DNA from: Promethearchaeota archaeon
GTDB taxonomy: Archaea > Asgardarchaeota > Heimdallarchaeia > Hodarchaeales > Hodarchaeaceae
Reading direction: 5' to 3'
NCBI GenBank assembly: GCA_048938105.1
Contig: JBHLMN010000004.1
Location: 287,442 to 351,441 of the forward strand
DNA length: 64,000 nt
Both the position numbers and the translations under genes were made by a program. This document shows, in pieces, positions 12,087 through 64,000 of this stretch. Numbering within the stretch: the stretch's first letter is position 1; each line of letters begins with the position of its first letter. The notes beneath the pieces were generated by a model. It was not told the DNA's origin. It was given only the letters and a program-made list of their open reading frames with translations, and ran no database searches.

Positions 12087-13060
12087 TGTTATACTTCCGT
12101 GTTTTTTCTTTGAATACTATAAGTTCACTTGGATCAAGTTCTTTTATTTTTTCTTACTTATCTTATAGAAACTCTATCTTTAATGTAAAAAAACATTTCT
12201 GAAAAGTCTCCTTCAGTCTTTAATTCAAATTTAAAAGTTTAATTTCAAGATTAATAAGATTATTAATTATGAAAGAAAGCACTAAAACAAATGCAATGAT
12301 TGACACACCGAAATTAACATAAGCACCCAAATCTTTACCTTAATATCTCGATGATAAATAATTCTCAATTAATTGTTTAATATTCTCTTTTTCTTTTTAG
12401 AGGCAGCCCTCATGGCACACGCTTTAAAGTCCTGATGTTTTTTAATTATGAATGAAGGCCTATTCATATAAAGTAAAGGGAACACTTAACCTTAAACTCC
12501 TGCTTAACAGGCTACGACCCTATTTTTTCAAATATGCTATTTACGCTTCTTGTAAATGCTAATCATAAAAATACTGAATGAGAGTCCTACAAGATTCACC
12601 TCATAACTAGGTATACCAAGGCCAAAAAGACTATTTTATAATTCTAAGCATGAGATAAATGAAAAGAGTTGAAGGAATTATCCACATCATAATTCAACTT
12701 GAAATTAGTCTCAATATCAATCCAGTATGGAAGTTCCAATAAAAATCTTAATCTCAACATCCAATTCACCCACTTTTCCTTATCATGAGTGATGTCTCAA
12801 TTTAAAGCATTCGGATGTAGTTACCTTGAACTTTTAAGGTTAAAAATTTCCGTTTTAATATTTAAACATCACCCAGAAAATAATCATAGAGAACCAATTC
12901 CTGATGTGAAGGATCATGAGAATCAAGCTAGTAGTGTAATTAAGCAAATTAATAAGGTTATAATTTAATTTTAAACATCCAATCCCCAGACTTTAATATA
13001 TTTATTTCCTTCTACTCATGTGTAGCATTAGTTCACCTGTGTCTAATGTTCATTAATTCA

Positions 13061-40578: not shown

Positions 40579-41163
40579 TTAATGAGAATAATAATCATAT
40601 ATTTTCTTACCTAATGTGCTAAAGGTTTTTCCTACATTTATACCTGATTTTGCAGAAGTTTCAAAATATCTAATTTTAAGATTGATGTTATCAAATTTAG
40701 ATTCTAATCGTTCTGTTATAAACTTCTTAGCCGTTTTAGTATCAATTGTTGTTTCTTTCTCATTTTTTAAATCGCTTTTATTACCAAGTACGATTACAGA
40801 TATATCTGGTGATCCAGAATGCTCAACAAGTTCATTTATCCATTTTTCTAAATTGTACATTGTGTTTGGACGTGTTATGTCAAAAATCAAGAGCGCTCCT
40901 ACCGCATGGTTGAAATAAATTGCCCTTACTTGGTTGAAAGATGGCTGACCAGCAAGATCCCAAATTTGGAATCTTAATGTCTTATAACTGGATTTTATTC
41001 TCAGTCTGACTTTTTTCGATGCAAAATCTGAACCAAGAGTTGGTTGATAGTTACTCTGAAAACCGTGGCCTAAATACCTCTCTTTTAAGGAAGTTTTTCC
41101 TACTCCCCCATCTCCACATAAGCAAATCTTTGCTAATAATGCCAATATGAAATTGAACTCCAA
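40579..41163 (-). CDS. Rab-like small GTPase (eukaryotic signature protein)
   Basis: GDGGVGKT, PTLG, WDLAGQ, NKSD and ETSAK; no C-terminal prenylation cysteines. Confidence 0.93.
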   Translation of the reverse strand: MEFNFILALLAKICLCGDGGVGKTSLKERYLGHGFQSNYQPTLGSDFASKKVRLRIKSSYKTLRFQIWDLAGQPSFNQVRAIYFNHAVGALLIFDITRPNTMYNLEKWINELVEHSGSPDISVIVLGNKSDLKNEKETTIDTKTAKKFITERLESKFDNINLKIRYFETSAKSGINVGKTFSTLGKKIYDYYSH

Positions 41164-48550: not shown

Positions 48551-48840
48551 AAGAATGGATTTTTCAAGGATCTTCAAAAAAAACCGTAGATCACATATTT
48601 TTAGGTAATACAAGGGCAACCCATTTTTCATATCTTCGGGCTAGAGATTATGAATTCACTTCTATTGTAACAGGCTCTGTATACTCAATCTTAAATCTTT
48701 ATTTTGGGTATAGTTTCCTTAAATTTAAGCATTCTGAGAGCGAAATCGCTTAATGATCTTTAAGGTGTTGTTAATTACTCCTTTATTACGAGATTTTTAT
48801 AATTGTATTTATGTATAATACTAATAGAAAGCATATCAAG

Positions 48841-49248
48841 ATGAATCCTAACAAGAAAAAGACTGAAGAAGAATGGAAAAAAATCCTGACAAAAGAAAAT
48901 TTCAGGATACTCCGAGAGAAAGGTACAGAACGAGCTTTCACAGGGAAATATTGGGATCATTTTGCTGAAGGGGAATATAAGTGTGCAGGATGTGGAACCC
49001 CCCTTTTTGTGTCTGAAGAGAAATTCTTATCGAGTTGTGGATGGCCTAGTTTCTCTAATCCAGTTAAAGGCACTATTAAAGAAAAAATCGATACTTCCCA
49101 TGGAATGATTCGGACTGAAGTGTTATGTTCGGCTTGCGGAGGGCATTTGGGACATGTGTTCAATGATGGCCCAAAAGAGAAAGGAGGATTACGGTACTGT
49201 ATCAATTCAGCTTCAATAGAATTTGAACATTGTGATTTTCCAAAATAA
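48841..49248 (+). CDS. msrB: Peptide-methionine (R)-S-oxide reductase; last five codons supplied by the transposon end
   Basis: [36 protein letters not shown] and RYCINSAS. Confidence 0.97.
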
Positions 49249-49296
49249 GTGATAAATTGTTCAAAATAATGATTAATTTTCCAGAAATAATTATAA
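49231..49296 (+). repeat. Transposon end: TGTGA followed by three TnsB-type binding sites
   Basis: TTTTCCAAAATAAGTGATAAA (49236), TTGTTCAAAATAATGATTAA (49257) and TTTTCCAGAAATAATTATAA (49277); preceded by AACAT. Confidence 0.8.
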
Positions 49297-49344
49297 TAAA
49301 GTATACATACAATTTCTTTTTCTTTTAGTAAATATCCTTATCAT

Positions 49345-50796
49345 TCAGATTGGAGTCAGAATTAGATTTGGTTTCGAAGTATACAATCCTGTTAAAATCT
49401 CAAAAGCTCCTGACAAACCCAAAGAGATAATATCATCAGAAGGTATGTGTGAATGCATTATTTTGTTTCTAAGTGAATTTAAATTCGTAAATGCCCTTTT
49501 CAATCTCTCCAAATCTGGAAATACATTATAGAAAAATTTATTATGTAATGAAGTAGTTGATACTATCTTACCCAAATCAGAAAAATATGAATTAACAAGA
49601 ATAGCACGTAAACATTCGATGGGGTCATTAAATTTGTTGTTCACGAGTTTTTCTTTTTCTTCTTTACTTTTTGGAATTTTATTCTTTTTAAAAGTTCTCT
49701 GACTAGCACTACCTTTTTTGATGCTTTCTGGCAATATTTTCCAAAGATGATACGATGAATTCCACCCCTTTGGAGTTAATTTTTCCACGATTAGATCCCT
49801 AAGATTGTCTTCTAAGAAAATTATCAACTGAAAGATCTCCGATGATACTATTATATTTGAATCACCATATATGCGGTTTCTAAACGTATTAAAAACAATT
49901 AATGGATAATTTAGAACCTGTTTTGTAAGTGTTCTATATTTTGACCTGTTTTCAGGTGATATATTGGCAGATTCTATTAGTTCATGTGTGAATTTAATAT
50001 TTCCTTTTTCAATTATCTTAATCATCTCAATCATAAATTTAACAACTTCTAATAGAACATTTGGTTGTTTTACTAAACTAAAATGATTGAAGAGCTCCTC
50101 ATCGGATAGATTGTTTGCAAGCCTTTCTATACCTTCCAGTTTTGATCGAATCAAATTTATTCTGTCGTTTAATGGCTTTTCTTCTTTAATTTGGGAATCC
50201 CCAATAATTTTCTTTATTTCACCTTTTATCAAAACTAAATTAGGTGATAATTCAACAGTCTTTTCTTTGAATATTTTCTTGCATAAATCTGATGATCTTA
50301 TTGAATAAATGAATGCATTTTGATTCATCAGAGCTGTATCAACTTCACTTTCATTGTGGATAGAAAAAGTGCCATTTGAAATCCAAGAACTACTCTTTAG
50401 TGTACATTTAATTTTTATTAGTCCTATATTGTATAATTCCCACAGACTGTTCTGAAGCTGACTTTCAGAAAAAGAGCTTTTTCTTAATGTTCGCTCTCTT
50501 GTCCATTTTGCATGTGATTCTAAAACAATAATTAGAATATTGTGTAAAAATGATCTTCTCAATATATATTTTTTTAACCTATTAGGATCTATTAGGTCTG
50601 TAGTTTCCCTTAGTGAGATAATACGGATTATTTTAAATTTTACTATATTTAAGACTCCACAATTAGGACAAATTGTATATCTATTATTGACAAAGATTTC
50701 ACAAATATTTAGGCTATTCTGAATTTCATAAGAAACTGTGAAAGATTTAATAGTAGCATCAAAGTAGTCTGAACAATGTTCACATGTAAAAATTAT
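49345..50796 (-). CDS. Zn-ribbon + wHTH + Swt1-like HEPN protein; probable ATA start (483 aa)
   Basis: The frame is open from 50796, adding CEHC...CPNC upstream of the track's TTG at 50562. FLEDNLRDLI, YFSDLGKIV and LRNKIMHSH. Confidence 0.8.
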   Translation of the reverse strand: MIFTCEHCSDYFDATIKSFTVSYEIQNSLNICEIFVNNRYTICPNCGVLNIVKFKIIRIISLRETTDLIDPNRLKKYILRRSFLHNILIIVLESHAKWTRERTLRKSSFSESQLQNSLWELYNIGLIKIKCTLKSSSWISNGTFSIHNESEVDTALMNQNAFIYSIRSSDLCKKIFKEKTVELSPNLVLIKGEIKKIIGDSQIKEEKPLNDRINLIRSKLEGIERLANNLSDEELFNHFSLVKQPNVLLEVVKFMIEMIKIIEKGNIKFTHELIESANISPENRSKYRTLTKQVLNYPLIVFNTFRNRIYGDSNIIVSSEIFQLIIFLEDNLRDLIVEKLTPKGWNSSYHLWKILPESIKKGSASQRTFKKNKIPKSKEEKEKLVNNKFNDPIECLRAILVNSYFSDLGKIVSTTSLHNKFFYNVFPDLERLKRAFTNLNSLRNKIMHSHIPSDDIISLGLSGAFEILTGLYTSKPNLILTPI

Positions 50797-53576
50797 TCAT
50801 CATCCCTTTTCTCTAAATAATATGGAATCTTTGTTGAAGTTATATCTGCTTTGAAAATCGCTTCAGGTATCTTAACGAAACTTGGATTGCCTTTCTCTCT
50901 TCTTCTAACTAGATAAACTGTTTTAGCTGGTTTAAGATAGATATTCTGAGGTGAAATAATCAAATAGGTAATCCTACTGCCCCCCAATATTTTCATTAGT
51001 TCTTCTGTCCTTATAGGATCTGTTCGTTCATAAATTTCATCCCAAAAACAAAATGTATGCTTGAGAAATGTTTCTTGAACTGAAACAATAAATGCGATTA
51101 ATATAGCTGCTTTTTCTCCACTACTAAAAATGCTTTCTCCCAAAGCTGAATGGTACTCTGATCCTTCAGAAAATCTAACTTTTAAATCAATTCCAAGGTT
51201 GTCAGTAATGGTATCTGCCTTTCCAATTAAATTTATTCTTCCTTCTGCCTTTATTAGGCTCATGAGTTCATTAAATCTTCGGTTAAGTATCTTAATACTG
51301 TTTTGTAAATCCAAACGATATCTCTTAATATAAGACAAAATTTTGTCTTCCCATATACCCACTTCACCTCTACATTGATCTAATTTCCCTTGAAAATCTT
51401 CAATTTCTGATTCCAGTAACATTATTTCTTGAGAGTGATCTCTTGCATCCTTAACTTTTTCTAATTCTTTTTTTAAGAAATTAGTCTCAGCTTCATAAAA
51501 GCTGGGTACTTCCAGTTTATGTAATTCTGAGAGAGTAACAGATGGAAATTCTACTTCCAACCTTTCTTTTGTTCTCTTAACCGTTCTTAGCTCAATTTCA
51601 ATTCCAGATTTTTGATCTTCTTTGTTTTTAATTTCTGTATTGAGACTATTAATCTTTTCCTTAAATTTTTCCCTTTTTCCTTCCTTTTCTCTTAGTCTTA
51701 CACCTAAGTTTTCTAATTCATTTTGAATTCTACTTTGTTCAATATTATGATCCTCAATAATTTCTTCTAGACTACATTTTTCAAATTCTTTGTCACTAAT
51801 CGTTTTTAATAATTGAGATTTACTCTCCCAATTGACTAGTAATCTTTTGAACTTGTTAAATTTCTTAATATGGTTTAATTTAACCATTTTTTTTTCATTT
51901 TCATTATTTAATTGTTCCTCAAGTCCTTTTATCTCAATATCTAATGTTTCAATTTGTTTTTCCCAATCTATAACTGGTTGAATATTCTCTGATAGAGTAT
52001 AACGATATCCGATACCATCATATAGAATTCCATCATTCTCTATCACTTTTTTACTATATTCTTCATTTTTTATAACTTTTATAAGTTCTTCATTAATTAT
52101 TTCAGATAAAATTTCATATTTACAATTATATAATGATTTAAAATAGTCATTATAAGAAAAAGGGACAGATTTATCTATATCAGTTAAGCTAATCAAATAT
52201 TTTTCAAAATTAGTTTCTTGAAACGCTTTCTTAACTGTTTTAAGATTACTAGAAATATTATTTTCAGTCACAAGGGAATACCGTAGATCTTTCAATATTG
52301 CTTCTATTAAAAGTTTCATTTCTTTCGGTGTGTTTTCATTAAAACTTATAATTTTGTAAAAAGGTTCAGTTAAGATATTTAGATTTCCTAATTTATCTTG
52401 AAATTCAATTGATGGTTTTGTTAAAGGTTTTCCACTCTCTAAATTCATTTTTGTTTTTGTAAGTTTTTGTAAACTCATATCTAATTTATCAAACTCTCTA
52501 TCTATTTGTTTTACCTCTTCTTCGTAAGATTTAATCTTGTTTTTTACTTCAGGAATATCCAAACCTTCTGGAATTTTATTCGCCATAGTATGAAATTCAT
52601 TCAATTTATCAAGCTGTTCTAAAATTTTTCCTAAATTAATGGTAAGATCACTAATCTCATCAGTTTTTATATCCAATTGTCCTTTTACTATTCTATATTT
52701 TTCGTCTAATAACTCTATAGCATCCCTATTTTTTTTTAGATTCTTTTCATATCCCTTTTTCCTTTCTTTATGTTCATTTATATCTTCTAATATCGAGTAT
52801 AGATCATCTTCTAATTTACCTTGATTTTTTATTGCTATATTAAGTTCTGACTTTTTCTTATTTAAAATAGATAAATCTATTCGTTCTTCAATACGTTTCT
52901 TTTTTTCAAATCTGTCCTGTTGCCCTTTTAATAAATTAATTTTTGCACTTTTCTCTAATAACTCGTTATTAATCTTTTGAATCTCTTCATTAATGTTTAC
53001 TAATCTTATTAGATCTTTATCCCAATTTTTCCTTAAGTTTTGTAATTTTAAAATTCTCTCAAAGTGTCTTAAGAGGGAAACTGGCGAACTATCAAGAATA
53101 CTTCTTGTTTGACCTGCTGCAATAAATGTTGCTTGATCATCAGCATTAAACTCTATTTTACTCAATATTTCTCTTATTGTGGCTTGACTCGTTGATTTCC
53201 CATTAATTTTATACGATCGTGTAATTCTTTCTTTCTGATTATTGTCAATGAATCTTTTGAATTCTACTCTGAATTTAATAATATTCATACCTGTAGTCAA
53301 ATGATGTTCAATAAGATCTTTCCCGTTTGTTCGATTACTTATATTAACTTCAGCAAACCCAAAATCTGTACCATTTCTTAGTAATAGATTATTAGGTCTA
53401 CGTGATGTTCCACCAAGGGCAACTAAGACCGCATTCCATATAGATGATTTTCCTGATCCATTATCACCGTAGATTACATTAAGATCCTCAGAAAACTCTA
53501 ACGTAAGACCAGGATCACCTATTCCCATTATATTTACAACAGAAACCGATTTTATCATTTCTAACCCCAAAATCAA
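50793..53576 (-). CDS. SMC-family ATPase (JetC/MksB- or Smc5/6-like)
   Basis: GDNGSGKS, coiled coils, hinge-like PFYKIISF...IEAILKDLRYSLV, FSSGEK and FWDEIYERTDP; no Rad50 CxxC hook. Confidence 0.9.
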   Translation of the reverse strand: MILGLEMIKSVSVVNIMGIGDPGLTLEFSEDLNVIYGDNGSGKSSIWNAVLVALGGTSRRPNNLLLRNGTDFGFAEVNISNRTNGKDLIEHHLTTGMNIIKFRVEFKRFIDNNQKERITRSYKINGKSTSQATIREILSKIEFNADDQATFIAAGQTRSILDSSPVSLLRHFERILKLQNLRKNWDKDLIRLVNINEEIQKINNELLEKSAKINLLKGQQDRFEKKKRIEERIDLSILNKKKSELNIAIKNQGKLEDDLYSILEDINEHKERKKGYEKNLKKNRDAIELLDEKYRIVKGQLDIKTDEISDLTINLGKILEQLDKLNEFHTMANKIPEGLDIPEVKNKIKSYEEEVKQIDREFDKLDMSLQKLTKTKMNLESGKPLTKPSIEFQDKLGNLNILTEPFYKIISFNENTPKEMKLLIEAILKDLRYSLVTENNISSNLKTVKKAFQETNFEKYLISLTDIDKSVPFSYNDYFKSLYNCKYEILSEIINEELIKVIKNEEYSKKVIENDGILYDGIGYRYTLSENIQPVIDWEKQIETLDIEIKGLEEQLNNENEKKMVKLNHIKKFNKFKRLLVNWESKSQLLKTISDKEFEKCSLEEIIEDHNIEQSRIQNELENLGVRLREKEGKREKFKEKINSLNTEIKNKEDQKSGIEIELRTVKRTKERLEVEFPSVTLSELHKLEVPSFYEAETNFLKKELEKVKDARDHSQEIMLLESEIEDFQGKLDQCRGEVGIWEDKILSYIKRYRLDLQNSIKILNRRFNELMSLIKAEGRINLIGKADTITDNLGIDLKVRFSEGSEYHSALGESIFSSGEKAAILIAFIVSVQETFLKHTFCFWDEIYERTDPIRTEELMKILGGSRITYLIISPQNIYLKPAKTVYLVRRREKGNPSFVKIPEAIFKADITSTKIPYYLEKRDDE

Positions 53577-54226
53577 GTCTTCTCATTTTCAAATGTCCAC
53601 CCTTCTAAAATTGAAAAGATTTTTGTATTTAAATCATTAATTTGTTCTGAAAGTTCTGATTTCCAATCCAACAGAACAAATCTCCCACTACTGGTTGTTA
53701 TTCTTTTAATATATTTCTTATTTTCAAGTTTTGCTAGAAAACCTCTAATTTCTCTATTATTATATCCATAAGAGCTTTTGATATAATTAATAAGGGATGT
53801 TTCCGAAATATTTGACTCTATTTGGGACATTATTAATATGTATACCAATGTGGCTTTTTCAGGTGTATTTAATTCTTCTTTCATAAAATCTACGAATTTT
53901 TTGTCACCAGTAAGTATGAAGTTATTGTCATTATCTAAGATTTCTATTGAAAAGCTAGAGAATAGAGCTCTTAACCTTGTTAAATGATGATCTACATCCT
54001 TCCCTAAAATTGTAATAAGTCTATTTTTAGAAACTCCTCTTCCATCATTGAACATTAGAGCTATTAAAACTGCGATTAATCTATTTGATAAGTCTTGTGA
54101 CTTTTCGTTTTTGATCAACAAAACATCATCATCTTGTTTTTTAGTCAGATAGCCTAGAATGTTAAAAAAACACTTAGTAGCTTTAATTTCTTTTGTAGAA
54201 AAGTCGTCAGGTAAAATTATGTTCAG
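53573..54226 (-). CDS. Tandem winged-helix KITE-like subunit (JetB/ScpB/Nse1-3-like); probable CTG start
   Basis: Two wH-like halves (LNTPEKATLVYIL...LAKLENKKYIKR), positioned between the kleisin-like and SMC genes. The frame is open to CTG 54226 behind GAGGTGA. Confidence 0.7.
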   Translation of the reverse strand: MNIILPDDFSTKEIKATKCFFNILGYLTKKQDDDVLLIKNEKSQDLSNRLIAVLIALMFNDGRGVSKNRLITILGKDVDHHLTRLRALFSSFSIEILDNDNNFILTGDKKFVDFMKEELNTPEKATLVYILIMSQIESNISETSLINYIKSSYGYNNREIRGFLAKLENKKYIKRITTSSGRFVLLDWKSELSEQINDLNTKIFSILEGWTFENEKT

Positions 54227-54236
54227 TTATATCACC

Positions 54237-55466
54237 TCAAGCTTTATTGATCAAACCATTTCTTATTCTTGAAATTTTCTGGTGCTTTATTTCGTCTATT
54301 TGCTCCTTTAAGGCAACTTTGATTACTCCCCTAATCTCTAGGTCCTTAATGGCTCTTATTATTGCATTAGAGTCTTCCCATTCTTTATTTTCAATAAGAT
54401 TTTGGATTTGAATAGGTTGAAAATCGCTTAAATGATTATAAATTTCTTCTTGTTTTTCTAATGTCCCTTGATTTGGCCGATATTCCTTCGGAATTTCATT
54501 AACATTATTAATTAATATTGGAACACTGAATTGATGTACTTTAGTTGATACAGACTCTCTTTGCGAGCTTTTTTCATCTTTAATACACCATTTTAAAACA
54601 TTAGTTGATGTAATAATTGGTAAAGATTTGCTACTTAAGAATGGTAAAAATTCAATCAATCTTGCCATTTCTTCAACAGTTGCAGATTTAAGATAGTTCT
54701 GTACATCATCTGGATATATTCCAACTTCAGAAAGCTTAATTTTTCTTTTAATAAAACTTGACTCACGTTTCCAGGCAATTGAGAAAGCTTTAGTCAATTC
54801 TTGACGTAATTTGCTAAAGGGGGCAAAATCCTTTATATTGGTTGTTGGCTTGAGGTGTATATCGACTTGCTCTATTATTTCTCTTCGAAGTTGTTCAAGT
54901 GACTCTCCATATGTCTCATTCGAATCTGATCGATAATTCATATAGATACTTTCTATGATTGATCTCAGTAATTGTTGTAGACTTTCAAAATCACCTATTG
55001 CATCACCCTCTCCAGTCCAGGATAATATCATATCAAATCTTTTTTTCGCCATCCAAAAGTCTGAATTCGGTAATGTAGCTAGCAATTGAGATAAAATAAA
55101 GGCAACCCAATTCCCTTTTGGTGTAAGTATATATGTATTGAAATACTTCCCTTCTATTAAAAGGTTGAGAGTACGCAATTTTGCTAAATCAGACGATTTA
55201 ATTTCGACTAGACCTGGAAAATGATGTTCTACTAATGATTGAATTTCTCTACGGGTCAATGATTGTTCAGGCTTATAATTCCAAGCCATTGATAATAGGA
55301 TTAAGAAACGTCGTATTCCTGAATCACCTCTTTGTGATACTATGAAAAGAATTCCAGAAATTTCTTTTAGAGAATCTAGTGAAAAGAAGATCTTTTTAGA
55401 TCTTCCTGGAAAATAGATTTTCTCTCCGTGAAAATAATCATTAGTCTTCATTTCATCATTTCTCAT
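54237..55466 (-). CDS. Kleisin-like subunit (JetA/MksF-like)
   Basis: N-terminal wH (YILTPKG), helical bundle, low-structure linker and C-terminal wH (IRAIKDLEIRGVIKV); first gene of the SMC operon. Confidence 0.65.
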   Translation of the reverse strand: MRNDEMKTNDYFHGEKIYFPGRSKKIFFSLDSLKEISGILFIVSQRGDSGIRRFLILLSMAWNYKPEQSLTRREIQSLVEHHFPGLVEIKSSDLAKLRTLNLLIEGKYFNTYILTPKGNWVAFILSQLLATLPNSDFWMAKKRFDMILSWTGEGDAIGDFESLQQLLRSIIESIYMNYRSDSNETYGESLEQLRREIIEQVDIHLKPTTNIKDFAPFSKLRQELTKAFSIAWKRESSFIKRKIKLSEVGIYPDDVQNYLKSATVEEMARLIEFLPFLSSKSLPIITSTNVLKWCIKDEKSSQRESVSTKVHQFSVPILINNVNEIPKEYRPNQGTLEKQEEIYNHLSDFQPIQIQNLIENKEWEDSNAIIRAIKDLEIRGVIKVALKEQIDEIKHQKISRIRNGLINKA

Positions 55467-55587: not shown

Positions 55588-56739
55588 CTATTTCTTTCTT
55601 ACTCTGTTCACCTCTCCAAATACATTTAATAATAAATCATTCCACGAATAGATACCAAAATTTCTCCAATGTCCTAGATGACATGCACCTTGAATTGACC
55701 TCATTCCTAAATCTCTTTTTTTTGGTTTTCGCTTATAAATTTCCGCGAATTTCAGTAATTTTTCCTTAGCATGATCAAATCCCTTCTTTCCAATGTAAAT
55801 ATTATTTTTTCGATTAACATCACCAAATATATCAAAAAGTAGATCATTCCATGAATTAATCCCAAAATCTTGCCAATATCCTTTAAAACACGCTTTAGCG
55901 ATTGTTTCCATCCCTTTATCTCTGTAATTAGGTTTTCTTCTGTATTTCTTGCAGAAATCTAAAAGTTCACCTTTTACTCGCTTTAGATTTTCTAATCCTT
56001 TGAAAAGATTAATCTCCTGATTTACTTCTCCAAAAATATCCATTAATAAATCGTTCCATGAAGATATTCCAAACTCCCTCCAATTACCCTGAAGACATGC
56101 TTTTTGAATTGATTTCATCCCTTCATCCCTAATTGTTGGTTTATAGCCTTTTTCTTTGAAAAAAGCAATTATTCTCTTATTTGCGAGCTTTAAACCCTTC
56201 AAACCAACATAAGGATTTCTTTCTTTATTTAATTCTCCAAATACACTCAAAAGTAAATCATTCCATGAGGTAATACCATAATTAGTCCAGTAGTTATGAT
56301 AACATGATTCTATAAGAGATTGCAATTCTTTATCATTGGAAGTAGGCAATCGTTTATGCTTATGATAGAACACCCTCAATTTGCATTGGGCAATCTCTTT
56401 TCCTAATTTTCCTTTCCTCCCATTTGTTTTGATCAAGGCTTTGAGAAAATCTTCAAATTCAGCTAAAAGATATGTTAATTTTCTTAAAAAGTTATATTCT
56501 ACGTTATATTTCTTACAAATCTCATTCGAATATCCAGAAATAAAGAATTCCATTATAATTTGCTTTAACCGCCTAGTCTCTTTTAAAAACCATTTTGAAT
56601 AAAATTCTTCATTATCAATTTTCCATATTCGGAGGTCATCATAAATCTTGACTGAAAAAGTAAAATCTTGATAATCTAGGATTTTTGTTTTCAAATCACT
56701 TGGTTTCACAATTTTGAAGTTTTGCCCATCTACACTCAT
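55588..56739 (-). CDS. Repeat protein B: four 69-aa W..GI.SWNDLL..FG repeats; candidate transposon target selector
   Basis: 207-bp DNA period (55634, 55841, 56048, 56255). Likely start is ATG 56739 behind GGGGA (the track starts at 56856). Confidence 0.8.
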   Translation of the reverse strand: MSVDGQNFKIVKPSDLKTKILDYQDFTFSVKIYDDLRIWKIDNEEFYSKWFLKETRRLKQIIMEFFISGYSNEICKKYNVEYNFLRKLTYLLAEFEDFLKALIKTNGRKGKLGKEIAQCKLRVFYHKHKRLPTSNDKELQSLIESCYHNYWTNYGITSWNDLLLSVFGELNKERNPYVGLKGLKLANKRIIAFFKEKGYKPTIRDEGMKSIQKACLQGNWREFGISSWNDLLMDIFGEVNQEINLFKGLENLKRVKGELLDFCKKYRRKPNYRDKGMETIAKACFKGYWQDFGINSWNDLLFDIFGDVNRKNNIYIGKKGFDHAKEKLLKFAEIYKRKPKKRDLGMRSIQGACHLGHWRNFGIYSWNDLLLNVFGEVNRVRKK

Positions 56740-56819
56740 ATTTAATTCCCCTTGAATTGATATGTCGAAAAGGTTATCGTTTTTGTTAATTCTGACTTTT
56801 ATATCAATAGTATAACGTT

Positions 56820-57941
56820 TTATTCGTTCCAAACCTCCTTTAACAAATCTATCCAAGAATTAATTCCATTTTTAGTCCAATAACCTCTTTGAATTGCTTT
56901 TACAATACCACCTACACCCTTTGACCTTCTTGTAGGTTTTATTTCATTTGTCTTATAATACATTCTTAGGTAGGCTTTTGCATATTCTAATCCTTCCTCT
57001 CCAGTCCATATGTGACTCTTTTTATTTACTTCTCCAAAAATATGAAAAAGGAAATCATTCCAGGAGTGAATTTTTTGATCTTCCCAATATTTCCTCTTGA
57101 TTGCTGTACAAATTCCCATCATTTTACAGTCATTAGCTTTAGGTTTTCTCTCATGAGTCGAATAAAATTCTAACGCTTCCATTTTTGCTTTTTCAAACCC
57201 AGCTTGCCCTGTATATACATTATTTTCTTTATTAACTTCCCCAAAGATTGTTTTCAGTAAATCATTCCATGATTTTATATTAAAATCCTTCCAAATACCT
57301 CGTGAGATAATATTTAGGTATTGTGACATCCCATTATCCCTTGTAGTTGGAATTCGATCAAATTCGCGATGAAAGTTACGAAGTTTTTCTTCAACTACTT
57401 CCAATCCTTCTTTACCATTATAAGTACCATATTCTTGATTCACATCACCAAAAGCAGCCCTGAGTAGTTCATTCCAACTTGTAATTACATATTTTTCCCA
57501 ATAAAGCTTTCTTCTTAGAGCTTTTTGAAGTCCATTAAACCCCTTATCTCTCTGAACAGGATTACGTCCTTTTTCTTTTTTAAAAAGTCTTAAACGAGCT
57601 TTAGCGAGTTCTAAACCTAATCTTCCCTTCCAACCATTTACCCTGAATAACGCAGATGTGATATTGGTGAATTCTAGAACGTTGAAAGCTAATTCTCTAA
57701 TAAGTTGAAAATCTTGATCGTATTTATCACAAACTGATTGGGAGTATCCTTCTTGAATAAATTCTATTACAATAATCCTTAGTTTTTGAACTTCCTCTAG
57801 GAACCATTTGGAATAACATTCTTCATTATTAATCTTCCACAAACCAGAGAAATTTAATAGGTTGATATTCTCTAGATTAGTTCCAACTGAATGAATAGCA
57901 TCTGCAGTTTTACATGGCTTTGGAATTTTAAAAATGTCCAA
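56820..57941 (-). CDS. Repeat protein A: four ~69-aa repeats, paralog of 55588..56739
   Basis: Shared N-domain WKI.NEE.YSKWFL.E and the same repeat consensus; directly downstream of tnsC. Confidence 0.8.
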   Translation of the reverse strand: MDIFKIPKPCKTADAIHSVGTNLENINLLNFSGLWKINNEECYSKWFLEEVQKLRIIVIEFIQEGYSQSVCDKYDQDFQLIRELAFNVLEFTNITSALFRVNGWKGRLGLELAKARLRLFKKEKGRNPVQRDKGFNGLQKALRRKLYWEKYVITSWNELLRAAFGDVNQEYGTYNGKEGLEVVEEKLRNFHREFDRIPTTRDNGMSQYLNIISRGIWKDFNIKSWNDLLKTIFGEVNKENNVYTGQAGFEKAKMEALEFYSTHERKPKANDCKMMGICTAIKRKYWEDQKIHSWNDFLFHIFGEVNKKSHIWTGEEGLEYAKAYLRMYYKTNEIKPTRRSKGVGGIVKAIQRGYWTKNGINSWIDLLKEVWNE

Positions 57942-57967: not shown

Positions 57968-59179
57968 CTATATCCGATCACCCTCTCTATTAACTAGTTT
58001 AATGTTTTTATGTTTCATTTTATAATGATTAATTAAATTTCTGTATGTTTTGTAAGGAGATCGAGACCTTTTGCACCCTTTAATCTTACATAAACGGTCT
58101 TCAAACCCAAGGACAATTTTCAGCTCATTACCATCCTCATGCTCTACTCTAAGAGTTTCATAATTAACTCCCTCAAGGATAATTAAGCCATAATCATCTT
58201 TATCTGGATAGAGTCGTCCTGCGTTAAGGGCTCTTTTTGCTGCATATTTGATCAGTTCAACAGTCAATCCCGCTTTCCCATAACTTCTTTTATAAAGAAA
58301 CATTGCTATTTCTGGATTTAAAACTAAATTTTCACTAGATTTATCCTCAATTACCAAATTCCATTTATCTGAAATTCCCATTGATGTGAAATCTTCATGA
58401 ATAGCCCATAGAAAATTACCATATTCAATCTGGGGTAAACTCCTTAGTTTAATAGAATGGGCTCTTCCTTGTATCCAGTCAGCTGCATCTAATAATGGAA
58501 GGCCATCTTGTGTTCCACAGAGCAAAAAATATGTTCTTAATGAGTCTTTCCAGTATGATTTTGTTGTTAAGTCTTTCAAAGCCTCAAAGATATTCGGAAT
58601 GTCAGGATTTCTAGATTTTAATAGGCGTTGACATTCATCTATAATTAATAAACGTGTTTTATACGATTCTAGTACTGATATGAGTTTCTGTCGGAGACGG
58701 ACTTCACAAACATTAGTTTTTTCCCAATTCTTAACCTGACGCGGATCAATAGGCCGTCCTAATTGATCTAGTAGAAATAACAATAATTGTTTCGCAGTGT
58801 TAATATCATTTGTTAAATTAACAATGATAATTGGATGAGTTTCTTCAGGATTGTCCCAGTATGAACGATATTTCTCTTTAAAAAGGGAAGCTGAATATCT
58901 TAATAAATAGGACTTTCCTGAATTATAATCTCCATACAAGAATAATATCCGACCCCGATCATTCATATCTTGATCAGCATCACGAAATCTAGGATCAAGT
59001 TCAAGTCTAATAATTTCTTTTGCTTGGTTATACATATAGAATGGTTTTCGTGTATTAATTCGGTCAAGAATTTCCTTTAATTCTTTAGGAAGTGAATCCA
59101 ACAGTTCAAGATGGTCTTCTGACACTTCAAAGTTATCATAACTATCAATTGAATTAGAAGTCATGTTTTCTATACTCAC
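57968..59179 (-). CDS. tnsC: TnsC/TniB AAA+ ATPase with C-terminal C2H2 zinc finger
   Basis: GDYNSGKS, LLIIDECQ, LCGT and IQGR; C-terminal CKIKGC...HYKMKH; overlaps the tnsAB stop by 4 nt. Confidence 0.88.
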   Translation of the reverse strand: MSIENMTSNSIDSYDNFEVSEDHLELLDSLPKELKEILDRINTRKPFYMYNQAKEIIRLELDPRFRDADQDMNDRGRILFLYGDYNSGKSYLLRYSASLFKEKYRSYWDNPEETHPIIIVNLTNDINTAKQLLLFLLDQLGRPIDPRQVKNWEKTNVCEVRLRQKLISVLESYKTRLLIIDECQRLLKSRNPDIPNIFEALKDLTTKSYWKDSLRTYFLLCGTQDGLPLLDAADWIQGRAHSIKLRSLPQIEYGNFLWAIHEDFTSMGISDKWNLVIEDKSSENLVLNPEIAMFLYKRSYGKAGLTVELIKYAAKRALNAGRLYPDKDDYGLIILEGVNYETLRVEHEDGNELKIVLGFEDRLCKIKGCKRSRSPYKTYRNLINHYKMKHKNIKLVNREGDRI

Positions 59180-61824
59180 CTCTTTTTCCTTTTTGCTAGA
59201 TCTCCAGCTTTCTTTTTTGTTATACCAGAAAATGGATTAGCTATTTTTGAAGGAATTTTAATTGTTTTTAGACGTTCTGGCTTTTCGATCTGAAAGACTT
59301 CAGGGTTAATGTGTGTATCGTCATTATTTTTTGTAAATCTATCATTTTCTTTATTGGAATAATTAGGTTTACTTTTTTCTCTACACTTTCGTCTTGCGTG
59401 TTTTTGTCGTGCACTCTTTGTTTTTTCTGCAGCTTTTTGATCTATTTCTTGCTGTAAACTTAGAAGTCTTAATTTTCTCTCCATATCTTCCTCTTTTCTT
59501 CCTTCGAGATTTTTATCAGCCTTTATAGCATTCCAATCCCATAGAGAAAGAGATTTTTCTCTAAAATAAATATTTACAAAACGATCAGTACAATTAAGCT
59601 CAATATATCCACGAATGTGATCATAAAAGTAAATTATTCTTATGTCTCTTGGATCAAACCTAATTCGAAACTTCTGACTTCTTTTCGTATTTATTGGATC
59701 TTTACTACCAATATATTGTTCAATTTCTTCGTTTGCATATTTAAGACCAAAGATTTCAATACCACTTTTCTGAACAGTTCGTAATTCAGAAGGTAGAACG
59801 TCAAACTTGAAAGTAGTATTGTCAACATGAAGTAAATTTCTATTGATCCCTCTTTCCTCACTAATCAATGAAAAACTTTGCTTCCATTTGGCCAAAGGAT
59901 TAGTTCTAATCTGACTGTGGTATTCTTCATGATAAAGTGCAATTTCTGTAATTATTCTGGCTTCTAATTCATCAATGGTAAAACTAGCTCTTTTTTCCGA
60001 TGGATAGTTCTCTCTTTGAGTAGGATTAGAATATGTGGTTCCTGCAATAGAATGTAATCTATTATTAAGTGTGCCAAGGAATCGTTCGACATAAGCTCCA
60101 TGTTGAGGCTTTTTTACTGCACGATAATGTAAATGAACTCCATATTTTAATCCAAAGAGCCTTATATCTTCACTCGTAAAATCTGAACCATTATCCATGT
60201 GCAGTGTATAAGGTAAACCAAATACTTGACACCATTCACTCGATTCCAAAATCCCTAGTTTTTCTGAATCTAAATCAGGAAATTGTTCTCTAACTTTTAG
60301 AAGAGATTCTTTCTTGTTTTGAATACAATTAATCAAGGTCATTGCAATAGAAAGCCGACTGGGAGAGTCATAGGTGATATAATATCCCAGAACACATCTA
60401 GAATGACTATCGAATGCTATGGTGATATAAGGACGTTCAGTAACTAATCTATATTCCTCATCCACAACTAAAACATCAATTGGGGTGTGATCAATCTGTA
60501 CGGATTGCAAAACATAAGTACCATGTGGAAATTCCGATGTATTGATATTAAACAAGTTTTCGATGGCTTTTTCCCCTCTCCTTTGTTTAATTACTTCTTT
60601 TTGAGAAATGCTCTTTAATCTACGCCTAAAAGATGAATAGCTTAAGCAATGTTCTAATTGACCTTGTTCTAATGCATAGGCTTGCATAAGTTCATGGGCC
60701 CGTTTGATACTTTTCCGTTCCATTTGTAAGTAATAACTTAGGCCTATCTCGCATAATTCCTCCGTAAGGCCCTTTTGTACCTTTTTTCTTCCTCTTTGAT
60801 TGTACTTGGGAATCAGGCTTTTTATATCCCCCCCACTTTTGTTATAAGCTAATATCCAACGATACACGGTTAACCAAAAGATCTCTTGGCCATCTTTTTT
60901 GAATTTCATTTGTTTTAATCGTTTAATTGGAGTTCCTAATAAGGGGTAAATAATTTCTAATCGAGAATTAGCCTCCTCCCACAGTTCAATGGATTTTTTC
61001 GGATTATTAGAGATTGCATATACATCATTGTAAAATGTTACACTAGAATCTACACTTTGTTGTTTTTCCCAATCGAAAGTTCGAAACCAAGTGTCTAATG
61101 GTTTATAATTGGATCTAAATGTATTTACTTCATAAAGAAATGATTTTTCTGTTAGTAATTCATCTATATTTACGTTTAATTCGAAATGATATATCATAGC
61201 ATAAAGAGTTGACCAAATATCATCAATAGTAACACTTTCGGGAAGAAGTTTCAGATTAATGGATTCTACTAGATTTCTTATTCTAATTCTTGGTTTTTTT
61301 GATAAAATGGCTTTTATGTGTTTTTTGATTTCTATATAAACCATTGGGTCTATCGTAGCTTGCATTAATTTTCGTAAATTGTAAATTCTGAAAGATTGGT
61401 TTACGATCTGATCTGTAACTACAATAAACTCAATATCTACATTATTTATGTCTGTTATTTGATTTGAGAGATCATTTCTGTTTTCATCAATCCATTTCTG
61501 GGTTTCAGAGAATTTCTTAATGAACTCCATCTTCTTCTCGAGTAAATCTTTAAGATACTTAACTTCGATGATTAGAATCTTATATCGTTCATCAATTTTC
61601 AAGAAAACTACAAAATCAGGTGTCCATACACTTTTTGACCATTTAAGTTCAATTCCATGTTCACAATAGGATTTTACAAATGGGTCATGTTCAAGAAGAA
61701 TAGCTACATCCCATTCTAAGTTTGATTGACACCATACCTGTCTTCTAAGCTTTTTTGAGTAAAAAAAAATTGTTGTTGATATTTGGTTAGCTTTAGGTGT
61801 ATGTAAAGGACTGGTTTTTAACAA
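59176..61824 (-). CDS. tnsAB: TnsA-TnsB fusion transposase
   Basis: TnsA: FYSKK...QSNLE...TPDF...IEVK. TnsB: VQIDHT, RPYIT.AFD..SR, HMDNGSDF, GAYVERFLGTLN and Mu-C-like RFDPRDI. Confidence 0.93.
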   Translation of the reverse strand: MLKTSPLHTPKANQISTTIFFYSKKLRRQVWCQSNLEWDVAILLEHDPFVKSYCEHGIELKWSKSVWTPDFVVFLKIDERYKILIIEVKYLKDLLEKKMEFIKKFSETQKWIDENRNDLSNQITDINNVDIEFIVVTDQIVNQSFRIYNLRKLMQATIDPMVYIEIKKHIKAILSKKPRIRIRNLVESINLKLLPESVTIDDIWSTLYAMIYHFELNVNIDELLTEKSFLYEVNTFRSNYKPLDTWFRTFDWEKQQSVDSSVTFYNDVYAISNNPKKSIELWEEANSRLEIIYPLLGTPIKRLKQMKFKKDGQEIFWLTVYRWILAYNKSGGDIKSLIPKYNQRGRKKVQKGLTEELCEIGLSYYLQMERKSIKRAHELMQAYALEQGQLEHCLSYSSFRRRLKSISQKEVIKQRRGEKAIENLFNINTSEFPHGTYVLQSVQIDHTPIDVLVVDEEYRLVTERPYITIAFDSHSRCVLGYYITYDSPSRLSIAMTLINCIQNKKESLLKVREQFPDLDSEKLGILESSEWCQVFGLPYTLHMDNGSDFTSEDIRLFGLKYGVHLHYRAVKKPQHGAYVERFLGTLNNRLHSIAGTTYSNPTQRENYPSEKRASFTIDELEARIITEIALYHEEYHSQIRTNPLAKWKQSFSLISEERGINRNLLHVDNTTFKFDVLPSELRTVQKSGIEIFGLKYANEEIEQYIGSKDPINTKRSQKFRIRFDPRDIRIIYFYDHIRGYIELNCTDRFVNIYFREKSLSLWDWNAIKADKNLEGRKEEDMERKLRLLSLQQEIDQKAAEKTKSARQKHARRKCREKSKPNYSNKENDRFTKNNDDTHINPEVFQIEKPERLKTIKIPSKIANPFSGITKKKAGDLAKRKKR

Positions 61825-61853
61825 TTGAACTCATCTGAATGGTTTTTAAATGA

Positions 61854-61872
61854 TTATCATTATTTTGGAAAA
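61854..61872 (-). promoter_or_regulatory. Single TnsB-type site upstream of tnsAB (probable autoregulatory operator)
   Basis: Reverse complement is TTTTCCAAAATAATGATAA, matching the consensus of the end repeats; no terminal ACA next to it. Confidence 0.7.
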
Positions 61873-62322: not shown

Positions 62323-64000
62323 ATGCCGTACTATTACATAACAGAAACAAATTTTGATCCATCTGTAGTAACCAAGTACGAAGAATTGCTTAAATGGTTT
62401 GAACAATCATTAAATGAAGAATATCATATCTTTATTGAGTTCAAAGTGCCAGCTGGGCGGGAAATTGACTTCTTAATACTAGCAAGAGATGGAATATGGC
62501 TAATTGAGCATAAACAGCATGATTTCATTGAGATCTTAAATGAAGGAAACTGGAAATATAAGGACCATCGTGGTCAAGAGAGAACACTTATTAAAAAAGT
62601 CAAAACTGGATATGAGAATCCATATAGACAAGCAACTAATACTGGAAACAACTTTGCTTCTTGGTTAAGACGGAATAACCATCTAGGTAACAATCTAAGA
62701 AAAAGAAAAAAGATTTACCCATGCGTGACATTCCCCGATTACCCCACGGAAATAGCAAAGCAAGAAACAGACTTGTGGTGTTATATTTCTAAAGGCGTGG
62801 AAGGAATACAAAAGAACATGGAAAATAGACGATGGGAGGAAGGTGATTGGATAACAGAGGAAGCAATAGAAAACATAGCTACAGCATTAAACTTAGAAAG
62901 AATCTCCTATACAGACCTGATCCAACATAAAGCCAATTTAGAAAAGATTTTTATGGAAACCAGTAAAGCACAGGTGCAAGAAGTCAAGAAAATTTTTGCT
63001 GAAACAAATCAAGTATTTTCTAATAATGATTGGATCTTTTGTGCTAATTTAAAAGAAGAAAAATCCTCCCCTAGATTCAAAGAAGTACCATTAACCGATT
63101 TTAATAAAGAGTCACTCCCATTCATTCTCACAGGTGATTTTGGGAGTGGAAAGACAGTTGTGTGCTACCAGATTATGGAATATCTTTTAAAAAAACATTT
63201 GGGCTTTTATTTTCCTGTGAGAGAGATAATTGTAACAAAAGAGAACGAATCACATCAAAAAATTCTGTTTAAAGGTAAAGATTATACTTATCCCATTAAT
63301 GTAAATCAGGATATTTTTGAAAACGTAGAAAATGAAGTTAATGAAATAATTGTGTTTCTAATCAAAACCTTAATAGCTACTTATAATGAGAAGGGACTAA
63401 TTGACCAAATCACCAATGGTATCAAGAACTACTTGAATGATCAAAGATTCTTCATAATATTAGATGGATGGGATGAAATTTCAAGTCATTCCAGGAGTCT
63501 ACTGAAAAAAATCCTTGATTATCTGTTAATAAAGGATGTAGCTGTTATTGTTTCTTGCAGAACACCGTTAGACGTACACTTACCAAGAACCAAGGTAGAT
63601 AGTAAAAAAATCCCTATATATAACCCTATTCCATTACCAGAACAACAGATGATACAATACATCTCGGAACGGATTAAAAATTGGCTAATAGATATTTCTG
63701 CACCGCAAATTCTCTCTCTGTTAAAGAAAACTTATGATAATAATATTACACCTTTTCATCTATATGCAATGACAATTGTACCTATAACTGAACCTCCAAA
63801 GAATACAGCGCAATTGCTTCGATGGATGATTATTGCTCAAGTTGGTTGGGAATTATTGAAGGAAAGAAAGGATGAGTTTAAAGATATTAAAACGATTCAA
63901 GACCTTATAAATCTCTTAAAAAAAGAAATGATAATCATAGGTACAAAAGAAATCTCACTATACAATGCTATCTTTGATTACCAAGAAATTGATAACGATA
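62323..64000 (+). CDS. NERD nuclease + NACHT-like STAND NTPase, runs off window end
   Basis: Hand translation from ATG 62323 (GGGGA upstream): EIDFLILARDGIWLIEHK, ENPYRQA, LTGDFGSGKT and FIILDGWDEI. Confidence 0.85.
   Translation, partial: MPYYYITETNFDPSVVTKYEELLKWFEQSLNEEYHIFIEFKVPAGREIDFLILARDGIWLIEHKQHDFIEILNEGNWKYKDHRGQERTLIKKVKTGYENPYRQATNTGNNFASWLRRNNHLGNNLRKRKKIYPCVTFPDYPTEIAKQETDLWCYISKGVEGIQKNMENRRWEEGDWITEEAIENIATALNLERISYTDLIQHKANLEKIFMETSKAQVQEVKKIFAETNQVFSNNDWIFCANLKEEKSSPRFKEVPLTDFNKESLPFILTGDFGSGKTVVCYQIMEYLLKKHLGFYFPVREIIVTKENESHQKILFKGKDYTYPINVNQDIFENVENEVNEIIVFLIKTLIATYNEKGLIDQITNGIKNYLNDQRFFIILDGWDEISSHSRSLLKKILDYLLIKDVAVIVSCRTPLDVHLPRTKVDSKKIPIYNPIPLPEQQMIQYISERIKNWLIDISAPQILSLLKKTYDNNITPFHLYAMTIVPITEPPKNTAQLLRWMIIAQVGWELLKERKDEFKDIKTIQDLINLLKKEMIIIGTKEISLYNAIFDYQEIDND

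What the first reader, a model, noticed from the sequence alone, without database searches (positions are those of the whole stretch)
49345..55466. Wadjet-like kleisin-KITE-SMC operon with a Zn-ribbon/HEPN effector instead of JetD
Seen: four tightly coupled genes in jetA-jetB-jetC order. The fourth overlaps the SMC stop codon and has CxxC..CxxC, a wHTH and a Swt1-like HEPN (RNKIMH), with no TOPRIM motif. Known: Wadjet uses the JetD TOPRIM nuclease to cut small circular DNA, and HEPN RxxxxH domains are RNases typical of abortive defence. Inference: an SMC DNA-scanning sensor is wired to an RNase, giving dormancy or death rather than plasmid cleavage, and is spread by a transposon.
Basis: partly seen in the sequence, partly recalled or inferred. 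Interest (0 to 1): 0.87.

Follow-up and report, generated by a model that had tools for sequence, protein, structure and literature searches.

The report
Wadjet-like SMC operon with HEPN RNase
A transposon in a probable Asgard archaeon carries a four-gene DNA-scanning motor built like the plasmid-cutting Wadjet defence, but its fourth subunit ends in a predicted RNA-cutting (HEPN) domain where sister operons have the DNA-cutting one, so sensing foreign DNA may here trigger RNA destruction.

Summary
Observation confirmed, with one caveat: gene 4 keeps its zinc ribbon only if it starts at ATA/ATT over the SMC stop. That junction is the same in three assemblies and the stretch evolves like coding DNA.

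Seven loci (about three independent lineages, SMC down to about 20% identity) pair this SMC family with the same gene 4, with four Cys and R-x4-H invariant. No jetD was found in the 99%-complete genome. Gene 1's best fold matches are MukF and JetA, though weak.

New here: four sister loci carry a true TOPRIM JetD in that slot, and its N-terminal arm is distantly related to the arm of a HEPN protein. Gene 4 is best read as a JetD whose TOPRIM was replaced by HEPN. The operon lies inside a roughly 25-kb Tn7-like element with a 5-bp duplication in msrB.

RNase activity, trigger, binding and an abortive outcome are all untested. It fails Wadjet membership (no TOPRIM) but is built like Wadjet. I found no paper on it. 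This scan noted the same system earlier on other Asgard DNA (e1-5469822, e1-5469817, e1-5573444).

The parts
54237..55466 (-). Gene 1, JetA/MukF-type kleisin candidate, 409 aa: N-terminal winged helix (residues 48-130), helical bundle, probable C-terminal winged helix
   Evidence: No Pfam or PADLOC hit. AF2 model confident only for 48-130. Foldseek ranks 1-2 are MukF 9gm7_C (E 0.032, 404 columns) and JetA 8q72_E (E 0.06, 444 columns). Top Atlas structure hit is TIGR02677/DUF2397, TM 0.30.
53573..54226 (-). Gene 2, KITE (JetB-like) candidate, 217 aa, CTG start
   Evidence: SMC_ScpB E 0.012-0.02, below cut-off. The family profile matches the kite-position gene of a housekeeping SMC operon in the same phylum (L041, E 3.9e-5, small local database). 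Start conserved as TTG in L015. Not modelled.
50793..53558 (-). Gene 3, SMC ATPase, 921 aa; Walker A GDNGSGKS, signature FSSGE, Walker B WDE intact; no central CxxC hook
   Evidence: Pfam AAA_23 E 2e-16, SMC_N E 3e-14. Invariant N, GK, S-x-G, DE and D-loop D across 8 family members. Faint SMC_hinge hit on relative P0005.
49345..50796 (-). Gene 4, effector, up to 483 aa, non-canonical ATA/ATT start over the SMC stop
   Evidence: homologs aligned.
50659..50784 (-). Gene 4 zinc ribbon, C5xxC8...C43xxC46
   Evidence: All four Cys align as invariant in 7 HEPN-type proteins (in L016 the second pair is spaced differently). Cys-rich N-termini also in TOPRIM siblings L018, L040, L064.
49879..50595 (-). 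Gene 4 arm: winged helix (68-180), helical bundle and CAP-like segment (185-306)
   Evidence: VIA matches to winged helices, Z up to 9.0, rmsd 2.9, 83 aligned. Transitive profile link to JetD arms through L016.
49387..49860 (-). Gene 4 HEPN domain (about 313-470); R443-x4-H448 at 49470-49453
   Evidence: R443, H448, E320, E329 invariant in 7 homologs. PADLOC PDC-M34B E 3e-7 and CARF_HEPN E 0.004. HEPN_Swt1 E 0.00056 in one homolog. VIA match to AbiF 8vz6, Z 7.3, rmsd 4.8, 151 aligned.
49231..49300 (.). Left end of the Tn7-like element: TGTGA terminus and three repeats of a TTATCATTATTTTGGAAAA-type site; supplies msrB's last codons
   Evidence: The same repeats follow the HEPN gene in L033.
49226..49230 (+). 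5-bp target site AACAT, repeated after the right end (...CCCACA) on contig C47 near 10,498
   Evidence: The empty site in G068 reads GAA CAC CGA TGA; C47 continues CAT CGT TAA.
48811..49248 (+). msrB-like gene, the insertion site
   Evidence: Identified from its sequence motifs (family name from my own knowledge). The same type of element end sits at its 3' end in G067, G072 and G059.
55588..57941 (-). Two paralogous repeat proteins (422 and 373 aa) between tnsC and the operon; function unknown
   Evidence: 39% identical to each other, internally repeated. No significant Pfam hit; no NCBIfam hit for the 422-aa one.
57968..59179 (-). tnsC-like AAA ATPase
   Evidence: TniB E 1e-12.
59176..61824 (-). 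tnsA-tnsB fusion transposase; one end-type repeat lies just upstream (about 61852-61872)
   Evidence: Tn7_TnsA-like_N E 1e-4, Mu-transpos_C E 7e-12. PADLOC TnsB E 2e-27..
62323..64000 (+). NERD-NACHT gene, further cargo; runs off the contig and continues on C47
   Evidence: NERD E 6e-11, NACHT E 2e-6. 65-bp exact overlap of the C27 end with C47:626-690.

Best explanation
A mobile anti-plasmid/anti-virus system derived from a Wadjet-type operon. SHOWN: genes 1-3 have kleisin-KITE-SMC order and an intact ATPase; gene 4 is always present, with a Zn ribbon/wHTH/helical arm and an invariant R-x4-H; sister operons have TOPRIM behind a similar arm. INFERRED from Wadjet: genes 1-3 form a dimer of loop-extruding motors joined by the kleisin N-terminal winged helix; gene 4's arm docks on the SMC heads as JetD's aCAP does; the motors stall face to face on a small DNA circle or other foreign DNA. 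INFERRED from HEPN biochemistry (my own knowledge): that geometry brings two HEPN domains into the composite RNase site, the role TOPRIM dimer opening plays in JetD. The output is then RNA cleavage, most simply host tRNA/mRNA loss and growth arrest, not DNA cleavage. The weak ATA/ATT start would keep a toxic subunit scarce (inference).
For: HEPN gene 4 at 7 loci: window, L015, L033, L016, L039, L056, L057, with SMC identity down to 16-21%. L016 gene 4 matches by BLAST at E 8e-10 over residues 102-449. Catalytic-type R and H are invariant. TOPRIM JetD sits in the same slot in L018 (PADLOC JetD1 E 3.5e-30), L040 (motifs by eye), L063 (JetD_C) and L064 (TIGR02679 E 4e-5). A profile of TOPRIM-type arms scores the L016 arm at 17.1 bits against a shuffle maximum of 4.6; the other HEPN arms score the window arm at 29.2 bits against 3.5. 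No JetD_C in the own genome. Patchy: 5 of 399 genomes of the phylum, 0 of 20 of the genus. Inside a Tn7-like element; L016 lies beside McrBC-like and DpnI genes. JetD aCAP binds the JetC larynx (10.1101/2023.11.03.565488); TOPRIM mediates JetD dimerisation (PMC10586767).
Against: No activity data. The direct link from TOPRIM-type arms to the window's own arm is not significant (0.1 bits, and 5.1 against 5.8; hhalign global P 0.015), so it rests on L016. Both structure models are poor (pLDDT 52 and 41) and the MukF/JetA matches have E 0.03-0.06. L039 and L056 have R-I instead of R-N in the motif. No JetA or JetB profile hits. The SMC's place in the tree is unresolved, so small-circle sensing is borrowed from Wadjet, not shown for this clade. 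Only about three independent HEPN lineages.
Confidence: 0.55

Rival explanations
1. Local silencing. The motor holds the invader's DNA and the tethered HEPN degrades its nascent transcripts, so the element is silenced and lost while the cell survives, a functional parallel to Smc5/6 restriction of viral episomes.
For: The effector is probably tethered to the motor and has a winged helix and Zn ribbon. The SMC profile's best solved matches are archaeal Smc, SMC5 and SMC3, with no MukB/JetC in the top 60. Smc5/6 silences viral genomes (PMC7617805).
Against: HEPN RNases in defence are mostly trans-acting and toxic (my own knowledge). The tree does not favour an SMC5/6 placement.
Confidence: 0.15
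2. Guard or other-trigger model. The RNase is real, but it fires when the SMC core meets viral replication intermediates or DNA ends, or is hit by a viral anti-SMC protein, not when it measures small circles.
For: Lamassu couples an SMC-like sensor to variable toxic effectors and ignores plasmid size (PMC10586767). Phage T7 gp5.9 inhibits MukBEF (PMC7617805). A lethal output suits viruses better than plasmids (inference).
Against: The operon keeps the full Wadjet layout and has TOPRIM sisters, so the circle-sensing geometry is the ancestral state.
Confidence: 0.15
3. HEPN is only a dimerisation module that replaced the TOPRIM dimer; the complex clamps or sequesters small DNA without cutting anything.
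For: Nuclease-free members of the Wadjet group exist (PMC7617805; three-gene L062). R-I variants in two homologs.
Against: R, H and two glutamates are invariant in proteins only about 20% identical, which points to catalysis.
Confidence: 0.08
4. Addiction module: gene 4 is a stable toxin held inactive by genes 1-3, which stabilises the transposon.
For: Carried on a Tn7-like element. An MNT-type nucleotidyltransferase gene lies elsewhere in the element.
Against: A 6-kb ATP-driven motor is a costly antitoxin. TOPRIM sisters and defence-island neighbours point to defence. The MNT gene is more than 20 kb away and I did not see one beside the other cassettes (not searched systematically).
Confidence: 0.07

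Closest known systems
Wadjet / JetABCD (MksBEFG, EptABCD), types I-III
   Same: Kleisin-KITE-SMC-effector order. Gene 1's best fold matches are MukF and JetA. Sister operons of this SMC family carry a TOPRIM JetD. Wadjet is known as Tn7 cargo (PMC8649781) and is reported from a Lokiarchaeon (10.64898/2026.02.13.705702).
   Different: No TOPRIM; HEPN instead. The effector arm has an extra Zn ribbon and winged helix. The SMC is shorter (921 aa against about 1,100-1,470 in the PADLOC JetC models). No PADLOC JetA, JetB or JetD hit for the window's genes.
Lamassu (LmuABC / DdmABC / ABC-3C)
   Same: An SMC-like sensor joined to an exchangeable, probably toxic effector.
   Different: LmuB is a roughly 650-aa Rad50 relative, often with a zinc hook, partnered by LmuA and LmuC. 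Here the SMC is 921 aa with no hook and has kleisin- and KITE-like partners. HEPN is not among the LmuA effectors listed in that review.
Archaeal SMC5/6-related complexes of TACK and Asgard archaea (10.1101/2024.01.07.573240)
   Same: Similar head sequences and a related kite (L041, L042).
   Different: The examples seen here have order SMC-kleisin-kite, a kleisin of about 260 aa, no effector, and housekeeping neighbours. This cassette has a 409-aa JetA-like kleisin, a fourth gene and a mobile, patchy distribution.
HEPN RNase toxins (Swt1-like HEPN, AbiF, Csm6/Csx1, HEPN-MNT)
   Same: R-x4-H motif with upstream glutamates in a helical domain; weak profile and fold matches.
   Different: No CARF sensor, ncRNA or adjacent MNT; the regulator appears to be an SMC motor.

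Membership tests
Wadjet (JetABCD) | Four-gene operon, kleisin-KITE-SMC-effector | tested here: met
   Gaps of 10 nt, 14 nt and an overlap; same four-gene layout in L015, L016, L018, L039, L040, L056, L057.
Wadjet (JetABCD) | SMC ATPase with intact Walker A, signature and Walker B | tested here: met
Wadjet (JetABCD) | SMC belongs to the JetC/MukB lineage | tested here: inconclusive
   The head tree groups the window SMC with two JetC1 and the L018/L063/L064 TOPRIM siblings (UFBoot 100, but very long branches). The AU test rejects no topology, including placement with SMC5/6 (p 0.17-0.74). The PADLOC JetC3 hit (E 7.5e-9) has its best stretch in coiled coil.
Wadjet (JetABCD) | JetA: MukF-type kleisin with nWHD, bundle and cWHD | tested here: inconclusive
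   Foldseek ranks 1-2 are MukF and JetA over the full length, but E 0.03-0.06 on a pLDDT-41 model. VIA to type II Wadjet 9qe0_E Z 9.8, tied with generic winged helices.
Wadjet (JetABCD) | JetB: tandem winged-helix KITE | tested here: inconclusive
Wadjet (JetABCD) | JetD TOPRIM nuclease | tested here: not met
   No JetD/TOPRIM hit on gene 4. PF09983 finds nothing in the 99%-complete genome, while the control rings in C. glutamicum.
Wadjet (JetABCD) | JetD arm/CAP docking domain | tested here: inconclusive
   Significant only through L016 (17.1 and 11.4 bits against shuffle maxima 4.6 and 2.6; L016-containing profile to window arm 29.2 bits); direct score not significant.
Wadjet (JetABCD) | ATP-dependent restriction of small circular DNA | not testable with these tools
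   Needs biochemistry or a plasmid challenge.
Lamassu | Short Rad50-like LmuB (often with a zinc hook) plus LmuA and LmuC, no kleisin or KITE | tested here: not met
   921-aa SMC without a central CxxC; no LmuA or LmuC hits; LmuB hits start at the shared ATPase head.
Archaeal SMC5/6-related complex | Three-gene housekeeping operon with a short Nse4/ScpA-type kleisin, broadly inherited | tested here: not met
   Order, kleisin size and distribution differ from L041/L042.
HEPN RNase | Conserved R-x4-H motif with an upstream glutamate | tested here: met
   R443, H448, E320, E329 invariant in 7 sequences.
HEPN RNase | HEPN helical fold | tested here: inconclusive
   AbiF 8vz6 Z 7.3, rmsd 4.8, 151 aligned, on a weak model; HEPN_Swt1 E 0.00056 in one homolog; PDC-M34B E 3e-7.
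HEPN RNase | Dimer-dependent RNA cleavage | not testable with these tools
   Needs an assay.
Tn7-like transposon cargo | TnsA, TnsB and TnsC genes; TG...CA ends with repeated sites; 5-bp target duplication enclosing the operon | tested here: met
   The right end is on another contig, joined by a 65-bp overlap and a continuing ORF.
Tn7-like transposon cargo | TniQ/TnsD target selector | tested here: inconclusive
   No such hit among the element's ORFs scanned; several have no family.

The most novel reading that the evidence does not exclude
A loop-extruding, kleisin-and-KITE SMC motor that measures DNA topology and reads it out through an RNase. The JetD arm would be a modular adaptor on which TOPRIM and HEPN are exchangeable, in an SMC clade that may lie between Wadjet JetC and SMC5/6. 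That would give a prokaryotic model for defence by an SMC complex without DNA cutting.
Probability: 0.4. Interest if true: 0.85.

Novelty: new variant of a known kind. Interest (0 to 1): 0.72.

Why it matters
The review and structure papers I read define Wadjet by its TOPRIM nuclease and contrast it with Lamassu, whose effectors vary (PMC10586767). A conserved HEPN version would show that the loop-extrusion sensor is modular and can drive a non-DNA output. It would turn direct plasmid clearance into probable abortive defence or silencing. Natural TOPRIM and HEPN sisters in one family make a direct experiment on how SMC motors switch an effector on. The window's cassette is missed by the PADLOC Wadjet models, so such systems are under-counted. 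It occurs in probable Asgard archaea, which bears on the origin of Smc5/6 antiviral function, though the tree here does not establish that link.

Tried and rejected
The search for related loci on genome contigs gave nothing for the SMC alone and only generic Walker A hits for the alignment; the gene 4 alignment was too divergent for the metagenome scan.

hhalign of HEPN-type against TOPRIM-type gene 4 was not significant. Foldseek and Atlas searches with the gene 4 model gave no usable match. Complex prediction of the gene 4 arm with the SMC head halves and gene 2 returned no answer; it is not used as evidence either way.

A programmed frameshift at the SMC/gene 4 junction was considered and rejected: the candidate slip sites are not conserved in L033, and two TGA codons precede the ATA in the window. 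A sequencing error is unlikely because three assemblies agree.

I first read the SMC as SMC5/6-derived from PDB ranks and dropped that as a claim, since no topology was rejected. Monophyly of the HEPN-linked SMCs was neither supported nor rejected (p-AU 0.36).

The kleisin profile found no cassette in 351 sampled genomes of the phylum of a Thaumarchaeota record; this means not found in those searched. Literature: Wadjet+HEPN+JetD gave 3 papers, none by title on this system, of which I checked one; MksBEF+HEPN+kleisin gave 0; Bürmann 2025 has no HEPN in its main text (Data S1 not read). Subscription papers are largely not searched. Expression was not examined.
Full report
Observation. Four minus-strand genes lie at 55466-54237 (409 aa), 54226-53573 (217 aa), 53558-50793 (921 aa) and 50796-49345 (483 aa stop to stop). 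Two starts are non-canonical. Gene 2 begins at CTG behind GAGGTG, where L015 has TTG. Gene 4 has no ATG/GTG/TTG until 50562; its four cysteines are included only from ATA or ATT over the SMC's TAA. The ATAATT junction is identical in the window, L015 and L033, the upstream 78 codons stay open, and their changes fall most often on third positions. The distant homolog L016 starts with ATG at the equivalent place. I therefore take the long form as real. The host is probably an Asgard archaeon. No tool named it; this is inferred from the Rab-like GTPase at 40579-41163, the ubiquitin-type genes in same-phylum loci, and the wording of earlier scan notes.

The three core genes. Gene 3 is an SMC ATPase with intact catalytic motifs. 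It is rare: among 1.84 billion representatives only one protein matched beyond E 1e-30. The genome has a separate canonical Smc on C6. Gene 1 has no family hit. Its model is confident only for an N-terminal winged helix, followed by a helical bundle and a C-terminal helical unit. Foldseek's first two hits out of 350,542 chains are MukF and JetA, aligned over the whole length but at E 0.03-0.06; the Atlas's top structural neighbour is TIGR02677/DUF2397 (TM 0.30), which I recall as type II JetA. Gene 2 has sub-threshold ScpB hits, and its family profile recognises the kite-position gene of a housekeeping SMC operon. Kleisin and KITE are thus likely, not proven.

Neighbourhood survey. Following SMC and kleisin homologs gave eleven loci with a fourth gene. 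Seven have the HEPN type: window, L015, L033, L016, L039, L056, L057; these amount to about three independent lineages. In them four cysteines, E320, E329, W345, R443 and H448 are invariant at 19-67% identity. Four have a TOPRIM JetD: L018, L040, L063, L064; L040 is in the same phylum as the window. L033, L063 and L064 are fragments holding only the SMC and gene 4. One plasmid locus, L062, has three genes only. Among 399 genomes of the phylum five carry the cassette, four HEPN and one TOPRIM, and none of 20 congeners does. No JetD_C was found in the own genome (99% complete).

Gene 4 as a JetD chimera. By eye both types share one layout before the catalytic domain: Cys-rich N-terminus, winged helix, helical bundle, CAP-like segment (L063 shows no Cys-rich start in the frame recovered). 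A profile built from the TOPRIM-type arms alone scores the L016 HEPN arm at 17.1 bits (shuffle maximum 4.6), and at 11.4 bits without L040 (maximum 2.6). A profile of L016 plus three other HEPN arms scores the window's arm at 29.2 bits (maximum 3.5). The direct score to the window's arm is not significant, so the link is transitive and rests on one sequence. In type I Wadjet this arm docks on the JetC larynx (10.1101/2023.11.03.565488) and TOPRIM forms the dimer (PMC10586767). The C-terminal domain is HEPN by motif, by weak profile hits and by a middling fold match to AbiF.

Transposon. The operon lies about 110 bp inside the left end of a Tn7-like element. That end begins TGTGA at 49231 within the last codons of msrB and carries three repeats of a probable TnsB site. 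The element encodes a TnsA-TnsB fusion and TnsC. The window ends at the contig end; a 65-bp overlap and a continuing NERD-NACHT frame lead to contig C47, where a right end ending CCCACA is followed by AACAT, the same 5 bp that precede the left end, and then by the displaced msrB stop seen in the empty site of G068. The element is about 24.6 kb if that join is right. L033 has the same end repeats after its HEPN gene, so that copy rides a related element. L015 shares 76% DNA identity over exactly the four genes and has other flanks; L016 sits by McrBC-like and DpnI genes.

Lineage. The family profile scores best against archaeal Smc, SMC5 and SMC3 among solved structures. A head tree instead joins the window's SMC to two JetC1 proteins and three TOPRIM siblings on long branches. 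An AU test rejects none of six arrangements. Whether this is a divergent JetC branch or closer to SMC5/6, and whether HEPN was gained once with the operon or moved between operons, is open.

Mechanism. Most likely (0.55) the core scans DNA as Wadjet does, the arm couples gene 4 to the heads, and convergence of two motors on foreign DNA assembles an active HEPN dimer that cuts RNA and arrests the cell. Operon structure, conservation, mobility and the TOPRIM/HEPN alternation are shown. Docking, trigger, catalysis and outcome are inferred. Rivals are local transcript silencing (0.15), a different trigger (0.15), a non-catalytic dimer module (0.08) and addiction (0.07).

Standing. It is not a member of Wadjet as defined, since TOPRIM is missing, but it is built like Wadjet with Lamassu-like effector exchange. 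I found no description in the searchable literature. This scan noted the same system on other Asgard DNA. I had reached this reading before that look-up, and those notes are not independent evidence. Verdict: real, a new variant of a known kind, interest 0.72.

Noticed in passing
window:49226-49300; L070, L072, L075: The 3' end of msrB is a recurrent insertion site: the same type of element end (TGTGAG/TGCGTT...TTCCAAAATA) follows msrB in G067, G072 and G059 as well as here. No TniQ/TnsD was found, so this may be a site-specific archaeal Tn7-like family with an unknown target selector.
   Followed up: partly
window:55588-57941: Two paralogous proteins made of roughly 70-aa repeats containing a WNDLL motif follow tnsC directly and have no family hit; candidates for DNA-binding target selectors (speculation).
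   Followed up: no
L086 (G000 C47 about 10515-12740): A second, about 2.2-kb element with the same type of ends starts 11 bp after the first element's duplication. It carries a PEMT/ICMT-like methyltransferase and an NHL-repeat gene and no transposase among its ORFs of 150 aa or more: a probable non-autonomous element at the same site.
   Followed up: partly
window:62323-64000 and L086:110-9830: Other cargo: a large NERD-NACHT protein (about 1,700 aa if the contigs join; Avs-like by architecture), a PolB-type 3'-5' exonuclease, a DEAD-box helicase, an MNT-type nucleotidyltransferase and unannotated genes.
   Followed up: partly
window:54226 and 50796; L015:660, 1924, 5354: The operon uses weak start codons (CTG, TTG, GTG, ATA/ATT), so gene callers truncate gene 4 (P0102 is 295 aa, P0099 is 456 aa).
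   Followed up: partly
L041:7389-13429 and L042: Housekeeping SMC-kleisin-kite operons in two genomes of the phylum are followed by a Cys-rich gene and genes that look like a JAB/MPN protease and an E1-like enzyme (by eye), suggesting a link between an SMC5/6-like complex and ubiquitin-type modification.
   Followed up: no
L040:548-11981: The TOPRIM version of the cassette sits downstream of genes that look like HerA, Mre11 and Rad50 (by eye).
   Followed up: no
L015:6888-11168: A 1,426-aa ORF beside the cassette has Cys clusters and a C-terminal part that resembles Cas1-type integrases (recalled resemblance, not tested).
   Followed up: no
L062:5333-9151: A three-gene relative with a shortened 718-aa SMC and no fourth gene lies on a Miltoncostaea megaplasmid.
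   Followed up: partly
window:40579-41163: Rab/Ras-like small GTPase, consistent with an Asgard host.
   Followed up: no
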